DNA from: Vicinamibacterales bacterium | GTDB taxonomy: Bacteria > Acidobacteriota > Vicinamibacteria > Vicinamibacterales > CAVVIG01 | Direction of reading: 5' to 3' | Length of the DNA stretch: 64,000 bases | Assembly (NCBI GenBank): GCA_035510155.1 | Contig: DATKHR010000111.1 | Coordinates: forward strand, 3 to 64,002 | Shown: positions 36,018-38,828 of the stretch, in pieces | Position numbering within the stretch: position 1 is the stretch's first letter | How the letters are laid out: every line of letters starts with the position of its first letter | Program-made: the position numbers and the translations under genes | Notes under the pieces: model-generated | Databases searched by the model: none | Seen by the model: only the letters and a program-made list of their open reading frames with translations | What the model was told of the DNA's origin: nothing

Positions 36018-38828
36018 TCAGCGAGGCTGCTCGCTCGGCACGGCCGCCTCCTGCGGCGACAGGACGGCGCTCGGCACGACGGCCGGATACGGCGCGGGCA
36101 CTTTCGCCAACCGGTCGACGGTCCGCCGCAGTGACGGCAACGTCACCGCTCGACTGACCAGTTGCATCGCCGCCCGCGCGTGACGCGGCCTCGCCCTCAA
36201 GGGCTGCGCGAGCGCCCGCTTCACCTCCTCGGCCGACCGGCGCGCGCGGAACTCCGCGTGCACGAGCGCGTGCAGGGCGCGGTAGAAGTCGGGCACATAG
36301 GTCGCGTGGTACATCATGGCCAGGTCGTTTGAATCGACCCAGTTCTGTTTCTGCCCGAGCTGCGACTGCACGCGCTGGTAGAAGGGCGTGCCGGGAAGCG
36401 GGTAAGACACCGACACGCCGATGTCATCCGGGCGGCAGACGCGAACCATCTCGAGCGTCTTGTCGATGTCTTCGCGCGTTTCGCCCGGGTAGCCGAACTG
36501 GAGGAAGAAGCCCACGTGGATCCCGGCCTCGTGGAGCAGCCGGGTTGCGCGCTCGATTTGTTCGACACGCGTCCCCTTTTCCATCGCGTCGAGCACCCGC
36601 TGCGACCCGGACTCTGCCCCAATCCAGGCCGTCTGGCACGCCGCGTGTCCGAGCGCGGCCGCGAAGTCCGCCGTCACCTGATCGGCGCGCAGCAGGCACT
36701 TGAAAGGAATGGCGGCGTCGCGATGGTCGACGAACTCCGCAAAGCGCTCGATCCATCCGGGCTTCAACCCAAAGATGTCGTCGGCGATCCAGAGATGGTC
36801 CGGCGCATAAAGCTGCTTCAGCCAGACCATCTCCTCGACGACGTGCTCCGGGGTCCGTGCGGTGTAGCGCTGGCCGTAAATCGGTTTTGCGCACCAGTTG
36901 CAGTGGTACGGACACCCTCGGGTCGTCGCGATGTTCATCGAGAAGTAGCCGTGATGCGAGCGCCAGATGGCTCGATAGCGCGCAACTTCGACGAGGTCCC
37001 AGGCCGGGAGCGGCAAGGAGCCCAGGTCGCGAATGATGTCCCTGGCCCTGGTGCGCACGACGCCCGCCCGGCCCTCGAGATAGGACAGCCCGTCGATCGT
37101 CTCGAGCCCGCCGGATCTGCGCCCGGTAAGCACATCGAGCAGCTCGACCAGCGTGGTTTCCCCCTCGCCCGTTACGACCACGTCGGCTCCGCCCTCGAGG
37201 TAGATCGCCGCGTGGTCGGTCGCATCCGACCCCGACACGATGGTCGGGATGCGGCGCGCTTTCGCGCTGGCAATCATCGCAAGCGCCGCCTGCCGCATGC
37301 GCAGCAGGCACATCTTAGTGAGGTAGTTAAAGTTGTCCTCGTAGATCACCGCGAAGCGTGGCTGGTGGCGATCAAGAGCGGCAGTCCACTCCTGCTCTGA
37401 TTCGGCGAGCATTGCGTCGAACAACGCGACCCCGTAGCCGCGCTCACGAGCACAGGCCGCCGCGTAGAGCGCGCCGAGCGGCGCGTAAGGCTGCTGCGCT
37501 TCCCAAAGCTTCGGATCGAAGCGCAGATAGTAGGCTTGGCCGAACAGGACGTCGACTCCGGCCGTCGCCGGAATCGGCCGTGAGGGTGCGTTGGCCGCGC
37601 GGCCGGCGCCCGGGCTCGCGACTCTCGCCGACCTGACTTCTTTCCGAGGATCGACCTGCGCAGCCGCGGGCACGAGCGCTGGCTTCACTCTCCCAGTCAC
37701 GACGCGCTGGTAGACGTCCAGGCTCTGTCGGGCCGCACGCGCCCACGAAAACTCGTCGGAGCGCGCGCGACCCGCCACCGCGAGCGCGTGGCGGCGACCA
37801 GGATCGCGCGCGAGCCGAACAAGCGCGGCGCCCAGAGCGTCGGTATCGATCCGATCGACCTGCTCGACCGCGAGGCCGCCGACTTCCGCGACTGCCGCGG
37901 CGCGGCCAGTCACCACCGGCGTGCCGCACGCCATGGCTTCGATGACCGGCAGGCCGAAGCCCTCGTACATCGAGGGATAGACGAACATCTCCGCGGCGCT
38001 GTAGAGTGCCGGCAGGTCCTCGAACGGCACATACCCCGTGAACGTGATCGCGTCGCCGACTCGTGATCGGGCGATCACATCTTCAACGCCCCGCGACAGC
38101 CACCCGTACGGACCCACACAGACCAGTCGGTGATTCAGTTCGCCGCGGCGGTGGCGCTCCGCGAACGCTTCGATCAGGACGGGAAGGTTCTTCCGCGGCT
38201 CAATGGTGCCGACGTACAGAATGATCCGGCGATCTCCAGGCCCGTTGCCGTCTACCAAGCCGTACTTGCGCTTCACACGATCGATCGCCGCCTCGTCGGT
38301 GACCCGGCGGAATTGGGACGCCGCGGCTTCATAGACGACGTGCACACGCCGATCGTCCAGCCGATAGTGGCGGACGATGTCGCGTTTCGCGCTTTCCGAG
38401 ACCGTGATTAACGCATCTGCTTTGCGGGCGGCGAGATCCATGAGCGGCCGGTTCAAGAGCACGCGGCGTACAGGGTGATAGCTGGGGAGGAGCCGCAAGC
38501 TCATGTCGTGAATCGTCACGACGGTCGGCGCGCTGGTGACGATTGGCATCATGCCGTTCGTGAAATGGGCGACGTCGGCGCGCATCTCTCTGAGCATCGC
38601 GGGCACGCGCGTCTGCATCCACACGAAGCGCGGAAGGCGGCGCGTGTCCTGGAACACCTGCACGTGCCGGGAAAGCGGTGTCGCGGTCTCTACCGCGCAG
38701 TTCGAGATGACGACGATCTCGTCGTCCGGCGCCGCGGCGTCAGCGAGATGATGGAGCAAATGTTCGGCGTAGTAGCCGACACCCGTCCGATTCGGCCGAA
38801 GCGCCGAGCCATCAAAGGCGATGCGCAT
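36018..38828 (-). CDS. Fusion protein: GT4 glycosyltransferase (N-terminal) plus B12-binding radical SAM domain (C-terminal)
   Basis: Single uninterrupted frame. GT4 part about 38828-37692 (MRIAFDGS..., EPRKN, [23 protein letters not shown]). Pro/Ala-rich linker about 37691-37560. B12/radical SAM part about 37559-36021 with GCPYHCNWC at 36891-36914. Confidence 0.8.
   Translation of the reverse strand: [936 protein letters not shown]

What the first reader, a model, noticed from the sequence alone, without database searches (positions are those of the whole stretch)
36018..38828. In-frame fusion of a GT4 glycosyltransferase to a B12-binding radical SAM domain
Seen: one uninterrupted 936-codon frame with three parts.
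- A complete GT4 module (EPRKN, E-x7-E region [23 protein letters not shown]).
- A ~45-aa Pro/Ala/Arg-rich linker ([38 protein letters not shown]).
- A full class-B radical SAM module (cobalamin-binding-like region [10 protein letters not shown]..., then GCPYHCNWC at 36891-36914).
Inference: physically coupling a sugar-transfer step to radical chemistry implies substrate channelling on a lipid- or carrier-linked sugar. I do not recall this domain architecture being characterised.
Basis: partly seen in the sequence, partly recalled or inferred. Interest (0 to 1): 0.7.

Follow-up and report, generated by a model that had tools for sequence, protein, structure and literature searches.

The report
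Glycosyltransferase fused to radical SAM enzyme
This is a real, conserved soil-bacterium gene that joins a sugar-transferring enzyme to a radical (probably vitamin-B12-dependent) enzyme; it arose when two neighbouring genes of an uncharacterised, radical-enzyme-rich cell-surface sugar pathway lost the stop codon between them.

Summary
Window 36018-38828 (minus strand) encodes one 936-aa protein with a complete GT4 glycosyltransferase (aa 1-379), a disordered Ala/Arg/Pro-rich linker (aa 380-424) and a class-B (B12-binding-type) radical SAM module (aa 425-936). It is not an artefact. More than 120 sequence clusters share the architecture, and the identical protein was assembled independently many times. 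The fusion arose by stop-codon loss. A Vicinamibacterales sister clade and Chloroflexota have GT4 and rSAM as separate, translationally coupled genes. Other Acidobacteriota have GT4|methyltransferase|rSAM. The gene sits in a translationally coupled operon: Wzy_C-like membrane protein, fusion, SPASM rSAM, methyltransferase, second B12-rSAM, methyltransferase and deaminase-type amidohydrolase. A Wzx flippase, a nucleotidyltransferase-like unknown ("unk305") and a second GT4 flank it. In other lineages the same rSAM is fused to unk305, to the methyltransferase or to the amidohydrolase, so it is the hub of a multi-enzyme module that recurs beside glycan-export genes in three phyla. The most likely function is glycosyl transfer coupled to radical tailoring of the same sugar, probably C-methylation. 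Neither the chemistry nor the order of steps is shown. No literature describes it. Moderate interest: a new variant of known kinds.

The parts
36018..38828 (-). Fusion gene, 936 aa plus stop: GT4 glycosyltransferase ~ linker ~ class-B radical SAM. No TM-like segment.
37692..38828 (-). GT4 (GT-B, retaining-type) module, aa 1-379. EX7E lies at 37938-37964 (E289...E297); EPRKN is aa 210-214.
   Evidence: Pfam. Invariant residues. AF2 pLDDT is mostly above 85. Foldseek matches MshA, ManT, BshA and WaaG with TM 0.75-0.81.
37557..37691 (-). Linker, aa 380-424: Ala/Arg/Pro-rich and predicted disordered. It derives from the former GT4 C-terminal tail plus the gene junction.
   Evidence: pLDDT ~30. Length 17-76 aa with 27% column identity across 45 homologues. 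Stand-alone rSAM orthologues start at M-x-D-V-L-x-G-Q, which corresponds to aa 425.
37029..37556 (-). Rossmann-like B12-binding-type domain, about aa 425-600. It contains [12 protein letters not shown] and the invariant EDNFNYL loop.
   Evidence: PF02310 35.4 bits against a cutoff of 32.1. Family members score up to 75 bits. Fold matches QCMT/MgmA, TsrM and OxsB. Profile alignments.
36294..37028 (-). Radical SAM core, about aa 601-845. CX3CX2C (C639, C643, C646) lies at 36891-36914, and the GAESGSQ motif is present.
36018..36293 (-). C-terminal helical extension (aa 846-908) and disordered tail carrying the conserved motif L-[TS]-P-Q-A-A-A-V-P-[TS]-E-Q (aa ~923-934).
38812..40509 (-). Wzy_C-domain (O-antigen polymerase/ligase-like) membrane protein with about 10 TM-like segments. 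Its stop overlaps the fusion's start by 17 nt. The start codon is approximate.
   Evidence: synteny
34943..35980 (-). Radical SAM/SPASM enzyme, 345 aa
34047..34955 (-). Class-I SAM methyltransferase MT1. This same type is fused to the rSAM in other lineages.
32524..34050 (-). Second B12-binding radical SAM paralogue (ATGA overlap with MT1)
31751..32524 (-). Class-I SAM methyltransferase MT2
30417..31754 (-). Deaminase-type amidohydrolase (Amidohydro_1/3). A homologue is fused to the rSAM in P0134.
29315..30469 (+). Second GT4 glycosyltransferase, convergent with the operon
40609..41883 (+). Wzx-type MOP flippase (Polysacc_synt), divergent from the operon. The start codon is approximate.
41880..42794 (+). 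'unk305', a conserved 304-aa protein with no family assignment: winged-helix-like N-terminus plus a nucleotidyltransferase-like core (invariant GS...DxD). It is fused to GT4 in L015 and to the orthologous rSAM in at least 65 clusters.

Best explanation
The gene encodes a bifunctional cytoplasmic enzyme of a cell-surface glycan (or glycolipid) decoration pathway. SHOWN: it is a real, conserved fusion. It was formed by loss of the stop codon between two translationally coupled operon neighbours. Both halves keep their catalytic signatures. It lies in a seven-gene, start/stop-overlapping operon flanked by a Wzx flippase, an NTase-like protein and a second GT4. The rSAM half is the hub of a module whose members (GT4, NTase-like unk305, MT1 methyltransferase, amidohydrolase) are fused to it, one at a time, in different lineages. 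INFERRED mechanism: the GT4 module transfers a hexose from a nucleotide sugar onto a membrane-anchored acceptor at the inner face of the membrane. The tethered class-B radical SAM module then uses its [4Fe-4S] cluster and SAM to generate a 5'-deoxyadenosyl radical, abstracts a hydrogen from an unactivated carbon of that sugar unit, and functionalises it. The most likely outcome is methyl transfer from methylcobalamin (C-methylation), as in GenK, GenD1 or MoeK5. The neighbouring methyltransferases, second B12-rSAM and SPASM rSAM add further modifications. The deaminase-type amidohydrolase probably removes the inhibitory by-products 5'-deoxyadenosine and SAH. Wzx would then flip the product, and the Wzy_C-like protein would polymerise or ligate it. 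The fusion itself only tethers two consecutive enzymes.
For: Domains, motifs and fold. Conservation and independent assemblies. Origin by stop loss: the sister clade has TGAgATG, TGAccATG or ATGA junctions; the split GT4|MT|rSAM state is; fused loci form one clade. Operon with overlapping starts and stops. Glycan context, in the window and in relatives from three phyla: Wzy_C and Polysacc_synt; ABC transporter or Wzx/Wzy_C with GT4/GT2 beside the orthologous rSAM in Gammaproteobacteria and Anaerolineae. Rosetta-stone network. Known B12-rSAMs that modify sugars (GenK, GenD1, Fms7, MoeK5) are Csp3 methylases (review PMC12931638); that they act after glycosylation is my own knowledge. GT-then-rSAM head-group remodelling is precedented by HpnI/K/J and Cds (review PMC13459092). 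By-product disposal: a deaminase-type amidohydrolase or, in L086, a PNP_UDP_1 nucleosidase occupies the same kind of position.
Against: No substrate, product or cofactor has been observed. No priming phosphoglycosyltransferase, Wzz or Wza lies in the window, so the acceptor is unknown. The rSAM reaches no curated family threshold. Its best profile hits, BchE and HpnJ, are not methylases. AprD4, a non-cobalamin sugar dehydratase, is as close as the B12 enzymes. The residue at the cobalamin lower-face position could not be assigned. In Gammaproteobacteria and Anaerolineae the orthologous rSAM occurs without the orthologous GT4, so its substrate need not be defined by this GT4. The NTase-like partner has no role in this scheme.
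Confidence: 0.4

Rival explanations
1. Donor-side tailoring. The NTase-like protein creates a nucleotide-tagged precursor. The B12-rSAMs and methyltransferases remodel it while it carries that handle. The GT4 module then transfers the finished unit. Under this reading the fusion couples the last tailoring step to transfer, in the order rSAM then GT.
For: All three pairwise fusions exist among the NTase-like protein, GT4 and rSAM (L015; the window; P0124, P0127 and P0160). That pattern fits three enzymes sharing one nucleotide-linked ligand. The rSAM + unk305 + MT1 core is conserved across phyla while the glycosyltransferases differ. From general knowledge, carbon-skeleton changes of glycan sugars usually occur at the NDP-sugar stage. 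Fom3 and OxsB are B12-rSAMs that act on nucleotide-linked substrates (own knowledge; both are listed in PMC12931638).
Against: The NTase assignment for unk305 is weak (HMM E=0.19; Foldseek E>0.2). What resemblance there is points to MNT/ANT-type enzymes that nucleotidylate hydroxyls, not to sugar-1-phosphate nucleotidyltransferases. As far as I know, every characterised B12-rSAM sugar methylase acts after glycosylation.
Confidence: 0.25
2. Non-methylating radical chemistry on the transferred sugar. Candidates are ring contraction to a carbocycle (as proposed for HpnJ and Cds), ring contraction as in OxsB, or 1,2-diol dehydration as in AprD4. Cobalamin would serve as an electron sink or be absent.
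For: The best NCBIfam hits are BchE (127.7 bits) and HpnJ (115.7), neither of which is a methylase. AprD4 is the second-best solved relative. GT followed by rSAM is exactly the HpnI/K/J and Cds logic. The loop aligned to the lower-axial residues of TsrM and OxsB is rich in polar residues (EDNFN), which is the pattern the review associates with non-methylating enzymes.
Against: All those scores are 4-5 fold below the family cutoffs. There are no hopanoid or tetraether genes nearby. The loop alignment is uncertain by several residues and also contains F500 and Y502. Most characterised class-B rSAMs are methylases.
Confidence: 0.2
3. The cassette modifies a peptide (RiPP) or belongs to an anti-phage defence system rather than a glycan pathway.
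For: SPASM and B12-rSAMs plus methyltransferases are typical of RiPP clusters. ApyD (a RiPP rSAM) is among the top NCBIfam hits. Pfam GT4-conflict matches weakly (31.9 bits). unk305 faintly resembles MNT and HalB nucleotidyltransferases.
Against: The operon genes overlap, leaving no room for a precursor ORF. No protease or recognisable leader-binding domain is present. Glycan flippase, polymerase or ABC-export genes and extra GTs accompany the module in every lineage examined. PADLOC gives only superfamily-level hits. The GT4-conflict hit lies under a three-fold stronger Glycos_transf_1 hit.
Confidence: 0.04
4. The long ORF is an assembly or sequencing artefact: a missed stop or frameshift in the linker.
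For: A sister clade does have two separate genes at the same place. Some nanopore MAGs show frameshifts in this gene (L008, L034, L038).
Against: More than 120 clusters have the single frame, with linkers of different length and sequence. The identical 936-aa protein was recovered in many independent assemblies. There is no start codon at the rSAM boundary.
Confidence: 0.01

Closest known systems
HpnI/HpnK/HpnJ (bacteriohopanetetrol cyclitol ether) and glycosyltransferase + Cds (calditol synthase)
   Same: A glycosyltransferase installs a sugar, and a radical SAM enzyme then remodels that sugar. HpnJ is a B12-binding-type rSAM and is among the best profile hits here.
   Different: Those enzymes are separate proteins acting on hopanoid or tetraether lipids. 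HpnI is not a GT4 (own knowledge). The window protein scores 115.7 bits against a cutoff of 577.6 for HpnJ, has no hopanoid context, and sits in a Wzx/Wzy_C locus with several more rSAMs and methyltransferases.
Cobalamin-dependent radical SAM sugar C-methyltransferases GenK, GenD1/GntE, Fms7 and MoeK5
   Same: They are class-B rSAMs that methylate unactivated sp3 carbons of sugars. MoeK5 works on a lipid-linked saccharide (own knowledge; all four are listed as Csp3 methylases in PMC12931638).
   Different: They belong to antibiotic pathways and are not fused to a GT.
QCMT/MgmA (PDB 9CCB), methyl-coenzyme M reductase glutamine C-methyltransferase
   Same: It is the closest solved structure by sequence (E 4.7e-33 with the family profile) and by fold. 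It has the class I B12-rSAM layout: N-terminal Rossmann domain followed by the TIM-type rSAM core.
   Different: Identity is about 20%. Its substrate is a protein, it is archaeal, and it has no GT. The TIGR04014 score is 103 against a cutoff of 360.
AprD4 (PDB 6FD2), radical SAM 1,2-diol dehydratase of apramycin biosynthesis
   Same: It is an rSAM acting on a sugar of a pseudodisaccharide and is the second-closest solved relative.
   Different: AprD4 does not bind cobalamin (PMC12931638). Only the rSAM core aligns, not the N-terminal domain. The NF033070 score is 74.6 against a cutoff of 500.
Retaining GT4 enzymes MshA, ManT (methylmannose polysaccharide mannosyltransferase), BshA, WaaG and PimB'
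   Same: They share the GT-B fold, the EX7E motif and 17-27% identity, with TM-scores of 0.75-0.81.
   Different: None is fused to an rSAM. Donor and acceptor for the window enzyme cannot be deduced at this distance.
Fom1 cytidylyltransferase domain + Fom3 (fosfomycin pathway)
   Same: A nucleotidyltransferase supplies a nucleotide-tagged substrate to a B12-rSAM methylase (own knowledge). This is the logic of the donor-side rival and of the unk305~rSAM fusions.
   Different: The substrate is a phosphonate, not a sugar. Fom1's cytidylyltransferase domain is, as far as I recall, not of the Pol-beta type of fold that unk305 faintly resembles (own knowledge, not tested). No sequence relationship was tested.

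Membership tests
CAZy GT4 / GT-B retaining glycosyltransferases | Two Rossmann-like domains (Glyco_transf_4 + Glycos_transf_1) | tested here: met
   Scores are 53.8 and 99.1 bits against cutoffs of 28.5 and 26.4. The AF2 model matches MshA, BshA and WaaG with TM 0.75-0.81.
CAZy GT4 / GT-B retaining glycosyltransferases | EX7E motif and basic residues for the nucleotide-diphosphate | tested here: met
   E289, E297, R212 and K213 are invariant in 45 homologues.
CAZy GT4 / GT-B retaining glycosyltransferases | Glycosyl transfer with retention; donor and acceptor identity | not testable with these tools
   This needs an enzyme assay.
Class B (cobalamin-dependent) radical SAM enzymes | CX3CX2C cluster motif within a TIM-type radical SAM core | tested here: met
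   C639, C643 and C646 are invariant. PF04055 scores 67 bits. The fold matches QCMT, TsrM and OxsB.
Class B (cobalamin-dependent) radical SAM enzymes | N-terminal Rossmann-like B12-binding domain | tested here: met
   PF02310 scores 35.4 bits against a cutoff of 32.1, which is marginal. Relatives in the same family score up to 75 bits. The strand/helix pattern of a Rossmann domain is seen at aa 427-552.
Class B (cobalamin-dependent) radical SAM enzymes | Actual cobalamin binding; nature of the lower-axial residue (hydrophobic in radical methylases) | tested here: inconclusive
   Profile alignments place TsrM R69 and OxsB N186 in the invariant E497-D-N-F-N-Y502 loop, but the register is uncertain. 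AprD4, a non-binder, is equally similar.
BchE (anaerobic Mg-protoporphyrin IX monomethyl ester cyclase; the JGI annotation) | Score at or above the TIGR02026 cutoff, in a bacteriochlorophyll context | tested here: not met
   The score is 127.7 bits against a cutoff of 481.35. No photosynthesis genes are in the window.
HpnJ (hopanoid cyclitol ether rSAM) | Score at or above the TIGR03471 cutoff, in a hopanoid gene context | tested here: not met
   The score is 115.7 bits against 577.6, and only model positions 122-390 align. No shc or hpn genes are nearby.
AprD4-type radical SAM diol dehydratase | Score at or above the NF033070 cutoff | tested here: not met
   The score is 74.6 bits against 500.
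Wzx/Wzy-dependent glycan assembly locus | MOP flippase, Wzy_C-domain polytopic membrane protein and glycosyltransferases | tested here: met
   Polysacc_synt scores 62.6 bits. Wzy_C scores 48.4 bits and the protein has about 10 TM-like segments. Two GT4 genes are present. The arrangement is conserved in relatives.
Wzx/Wzy-dependent glycan assembly locus | Priming phosphoglycosyltransferase, chain-length regulator and outer-membrane export | tested here: not met
   None was found among the ORFs scanned across the 64-kb window. They may be encoded elsewhere.
RiPP biosynthetic cluster | Precursor peptide gene next to the maturases | tested here: not met
   Operon genes overlap start to stop and leave no room for one. 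No small conserved ORF appears in the compact loci L003 and L007.
Known anti-phage defence systems (PADLOC) | A specific model match for the system's proteins | tested here: not met
   Only superfamily-level hits were found (rSAM core to pVip or PDC-M51A, methyltransferase to mad2), and unk305 gave none.

The most novel reading that the evidence does not exclude
The fusion is one visible edge of an undescribed multi-enzyme assembly spanning several phyla: an NTase-like protein, three to five B12-type radical SAM paralogues, a SPASM rSAM, class-I methyltransferases, a by-product-clearing deaminase or nucleosidase, and a glycosyltransferase. This assembly would build a heavily radical-tailored sugar (for example poly-C-methylated or carbocyclic) and install it on a cell-surface glycan of Acidobacteriota, Chloroflexota and Gammaproteobacteria. 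Such a sugar modification and enzyme logic has not been reported for Wzx/Wzy- or ABC-exported glycans.
Probability: 0.25. Interest if true: 0.75.

Novelty: new variant of a known kind. Interest (0 to 1): 0.5.

Why it matters
Radical SAM chemistry on sugars is known mainly from antibiotic and lipid head-group pathways. I found no characterised case inside a Wzx/Wzy-type surface-glycan locus, and none fused to a glycosyltransferase.

The fusion, together with the alternative fusions of the same rSAM to a nucleotidyltransferase-like protein, a methyltransferase and an amidohydrolase, identifies which proteins work together. It also gives enzymologists a single polypeptide in which the product of one active site is probably the substrate of the other. 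That could simplify finding the substrate of an orphan B12-rSAM family with about 2,400 50%-identity representatives at E<=1e-30.

The carriers, Vicinamibacterales, are abundant in soil and little studied, and their envelope chemistry is essentially unknown. A practical by-product is that the widespread JGI label 'BchE' for these proteins is wrong.

Tried and rejected
- Frameshift or missed stop: rejected.
- Internal translation start that would yield a separate rSAM: rejected, because there is no ATG, GTG or TTG at the boundary.
- Membership of BchE, HpnJ, AprD4, ApyD, ladderane rSAM, QCMT, PhpK or HpnR: all are 3-10 fold below curated cutoffs.
- RiPP cluster: no precursor ORF and no room for one.
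- Defence system: PADLOC is negative.
- Cobalamin riboswitch or other RNA element near the operon: none in the window. No tRNAs either.
- Promoter and terminator scans were no better than shuffled sequence.
- Assigning unk305 by Pfam, NCBIfam, a PDB profile search and Foldseek gave only sub-threshold nucleotidyltransferase hints.
- Deducing methylase versus non-methylase from the lower-axial residue failed because the alignment register is uncertain.
- Looking for a priming transferase, Wzz or Wza in the rest of the window found none; the flanks encode peptidases, an ABC-2 transporter, an amidase and similar genes.
- Six literature searches found no description of the fusion or the operon. Searches returned no papers; some searches returned only unrelated ones.
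- My first automatic fused/split classification was wrong for several loci and was replaced by explicit frame and stop analysis.
- One family-scan call failed on a bad coordinate range.

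
Full report
**1.

On the minus strand, ATG 38828 to the stop at 36018-36020 is one open frame of 936 codons. The mechanical ORF extends 16 codons further upstream, to TTG 38876. All homologues begin MRIAFDG, so 38828 is the start.

Pfam finds four domains:
- Glyco_transf_4 at aa 16-166
- Glycos_transf_1 at aa 197-354
- B12-binding at aa 444-564 (35.4 bits, cutoff 32.1)
- Radical_SAM at aa 635-794

The protein has no TM-like segment.

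**2. It is not an artefact**

A search of 5.8 billion proteins gave 892 hits at E<=1e-10. The best 120 are all full-length fusions of 867-969 aa at 65-99% identity. Where they are named at all, it is as 'glycosyltransferase [Vicinamibacterales bacterium]'. The exact sequence is in NCBI nr and in a 92-member cluster in which the listed full-length members from many independent JGI, ENA and Logan assemblies are nearly all 936 aa.

Across 45 homologues the mean column identity differs sharply by region:
- GT4 part: 0.82
- rSAM part: 0.87
- linker: 0.27

The linker ranges from 17 to 76 aa and is Ala/Arg/Pro-rich. GC3 stays high through it, and V425 is GTC, so no internal start can produce a separate rSAM.

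AlphaFold2 (mean pLDDT 77.6) gives a confident GT-B fold for aa 1-379, a disordered linker at 381-422 (pLDDT ~30), a Rossmann domain plus TIM-type rSAM module at 427-908, and a disordered tail. Foldseek matches the N-terminal half to the retaining GT4 enzymes MshA, ManT, GlgM, BshA, WaaG and PimB'. It matches the C-terminal half to MgmA/QCMT, TsrM, OxsB and AprD4. Sequence searches of the PDB agree.

**3. How the fusion arose**

A scan of 185,579 species genomes plus local tBLASTn and frame analysis shows three states:
- *State (i).* In other Acidobacteriota (L016, L017, L020, L023, L031) the order is GT4 (404-416 aa), then a class-I methyltransferase, then rSAM (511-518 aa, 58-61% identical to the fused half), as separate genes.
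- *State (ii).* In a Vicinamibacterales sister clade (L009-L012, L014, L021, L022) and in Chloroflexota (L013, L015) the GT4 and rSAM genes are adjacent but separate. Their junctions read TGAgATG, TGAccATG or ATGA, which indicates translational coupling.
- *State (iii).* In the window's clade (L001-L007, L018 and more than 120 protein clusters) there is a single frame.

Stand-alone rSAM orthologues start M-x-D-V-L-x-G-Q-x-Y-[FY]-L-R-F-D, which is fusion residue 425 onward. The fused loci form one clade in a neighbour-joining tree of the rSAM part (with fused or split status corrected). The simplest history is a single loss of the stop codon between two coupled genes, with the old GT4 tail and junction becoming the linker.

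**4. The genomic setting**

The fusion is the second gene of a run whose starts and stops all overlap:

| Gene | Coordinates | Strand |
|---|---|---|
| Wzy_C-like polytopic membrane protein | 38812-~40509 | - |
| Fusion | 36018-38828 | - |
| rSAM/SPASM | 34943-35980 | - |
| Methyltransferase MT1 | 34047-34955 | - |
| Second B12-rSAM | 32524-34050 | - |
| Methyltransferase MT2 | 31751-32524 | - |
| Deaminase-type amidohydrolase | 30417-31754 | - |
| Second GT4 (convergent) | 29315-30469 | + |
| Wzx-type flippase (divergent) | ~40609-41883 | + |
| 'unk305', 304 aa, no family assignment | 41880-42794 | + |

The whole arrangement is conserved in Vicinamibacterales contigs. The rest of the window holds unrelated genes and no priming transferase, Wzz or Wza. 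There is no riboswitch or tRNA.

**5. The rSAM is a fusion hub**

An exhaustive HMMER search with the rSAM half found 2,400 50%-identity representatives at E<=1e-30. Among the best 150, local BLAST against the window's cassette proteins gives this census:

| Architecture | Representatives |
|---|---|
| GT4~rSAM | P0121, P0151 |
| unk305~rSAM | P0124, P0127, P0160, P0171, P0193, P0201, P0219 |
| rSAM~MT1 | P0123, P0125, P0128, P0129, P0175, P0225 |
| amidohydrolase~rSAM | P0134 |
| tandem rSAM, 2 or 4 copies | P0216, P0199, P0241 |

In L015 unk305 is fused to the GT4, so all three pairwise fusions among unk305, GT4 and rSAM exist.

unk305~rSAM proteins form at least 65 clusters in Gammaproteobacteria, Anaerolineae and other Chloroflexota. 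Their neighbourhoods again contain two to four further B12-rSAMs, methyltransferases, usually a SPASM rSAM, an amidohydrolase or a PNP_UDP_1 nucleosidase, GT4 or GT2 genes, and either Wzx/Wzy_C or an ABC transporter. The fused rSAM there is the orthologue of the window's (52-55% identity), but the orthologous GT4 is absent.

The conserved core is therefore rSAM + unk305 + MT1 + rSAM paralogues. The GT4 partner is specific to Acidobacteriota and Chloroflexota.

**6. What unk305 may be**

It has no Pfam, NCBIfam or PADLOC match. Its model is confident (pLDDT 84.7). It carries an invariant G109-S110...D121-x-D123 signature, which is kept in fusions only 22-32% identical. The only resemblances are to MNT/ANT-type nucleotidyltransferases plus a winged-helix N-terminus, and these are not significant (E 0.19; Foldseek E>0.2). 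JGI labels one fusion 'predicted nucleotidyltransferase'. I treat 'nucleotidyltransferase-like' as a lead, not a finding.

**7. Mechanism**

*Shown.* The protein has two intact catalytic modules on one chain. It is functionally linked to a glycan-assembly and export locus, and it belongs to a multi-enzyme module.

*Inferred, as my best reading (confidence 0.4).* The GT4 transfers a sugar to a membrane-anchored acceptor. The tethered class-B rSAM then abstracts a hydrogen from that sugar unit and most likely C-methylates it through methylcobalamin. This follows the precedents GenK, GenD1, Fms7 and MoeK5 and the GT-then-rSAM head-group precedents HpnI/K/J and Cds. The amidohydrolase is of the nucleobase-deaminase type. 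In Anaerolineae a PNP_UDP_1 nucleosidase sits in the same cassette. Both enzyme types are known to destroy 5'-deoxyadenosine and SAH (established knowledge of DadD/Tm0936-type deaminases and Pfs). By-product clearance is therefore the economical reading, although processing of an adenosylated intermediate is not excluded.

*Rivals.*
- Tailoring of a nucleotide-tagged donor before transfer (0.25). The three-way fusions with the NTase-like protein and the variable GTs favour this.
- Non-methylating chemistry such as ring contraction or dehydration (0.2).
- A RiPP or defence role (0.04).
- An artefact (0.01).

Cobalamin binding and the type of chemistry cannot be decided from sequence. The loop aligned to the lower-axial residues of TsrM and OxsB is the invariant EDNFNY, which mixes polar and aromatic residues, and the alignment register is uncertain.

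**8. Comparison with what is known**

The protein meets the sequence and fold criteria of GT4 and of class-B rSAMs. It fails every curated rSAM family threshold: BchE 127.7 against 481, HpnJ 115.7 against 578, AprD4 74.6 against 500, and so on. The JGI name 'anaerobic Mg-protoporphyrin IX monomethyl ester cyclase' is therefore a misannotation. Six full-text searches found no description of a GT-B12-rSAM fusion or of this operon, and two recent reviews of B12-rSAMs and lipid rSAMs do not mention one.

**9. Verdict**

The fusion is a lineage-specific stop-loss tether of two consecutive enzymes. It is common in databases and uncharacterised. Its main value is as a Rosetta stone for a widespread, undescribed, radical-SAM-rich glycan-tailoring module. 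Novelty: a new variant of known kinds. Interest: 0.5.

Noticed in passing
window 36021-36083 (fusion aa 916-936); also L013, L015, L016, L019, L023, L085, L086 and P0124: The extreme C-terminal tail is predicted disordered. It nevertheless carries a conserved short motif, L-[TS]-P-Q-A-A-A-V-P-[TS]-E-Q, which is retained in split orthologues and in unk305~rSAM fusions from other phyla. It may be a docking peptide; its function is unexplained.
   Followed up: partly
window 41880-42794 (+): unk305 is a conserved 304-aa protein with no family assignment. It has an invariant GS...DxD signature and a confident model, but only sub-threshold resemblance to MNT/ANT nucleotidyltransferases. It is fused to GT4 in L015 (5231-7483) and to the orthologous rSAM in at least 65 clusters.
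   Followed up: yes
P0199 (2279 aa) and P0241 (2331 aa): These giant proteins carry four tandem copies of this B12-rSAM type. P0216 (1001 aa) carries two. Their origin and context are unknown.
   Followed up: no
L086 15470-16228, compared with window 30417-31754 and L085 7309-8550: A PNP_UDP_1 nucleosidase is encoded within the Anaerolineae cassette, where the Acidobacteriota and Gammaproteobacteria cassettes instead carry a deaminase-type amidohydrolase. A homologue of that amidohydrolase is fused to the rSAM in P0134. This looks like non-homologous replacement, consistent with 5'-dA/SAH disposal.
   Followed up: partly
One search hit list (JGI names): Many members of the fusion family, and of the unk305~rSAM family, are annotated by JGI as 'anaerobic magnesium-protoporphyrin IX monomethyl ester cyclase' (BchE). 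The TIGR02026 score is about a quarter of the cutoff, so this is a systematic misannotation.
   Followed up: yes
L010 (CALQBJ020000070.1) and L036 (JAAUTF010000694.1): Contigs carrying a Vicinamibacterales-type operon sit in MAGs titled 'Bifidobacterium breve' and 'Candidatus Gracilibacteria'. These are probably binning or labelling errors.
   Followed up: no
L001 15324-16944 and L002 15585-17063: The second B12-rSAM of the cassette is broken into several frames in these loci, and small ORFs are called instead. This is either gene decay or sequencing frameshifts. The window's copy (32524-34050) is intact.
   Followed up: no
window 28844-30499 (-): A 551-aa ORF with no family hit lies antisense to the real GT4 gene at 29315-30469. 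It is a shadow ORF typical of this 65% GC sequence. The same caution applies to the N-terminal extensions of the mechanical ORFs at 30417-32474, 32524-34479 and 38812-40902.
   Followed up: yes
window 19255-20655 (-) and 9629-12205 (-): A PilZ-domain protein lies about 9 kb from the cassette; PilZ is a c-di-GMP receptor domain often tied to exopolysaccharide control. An ABC-2 transporter (two permeases plus an ATPase) lies further out. No link to the operon was tested.
   Followed up: no
L085 1756-2310 and 6419-7306: Two sulfotransferase genes flank the gammaproteobacterial version of the cassette. This hints that the product there is a sulfated glycan.
   Followed up: no
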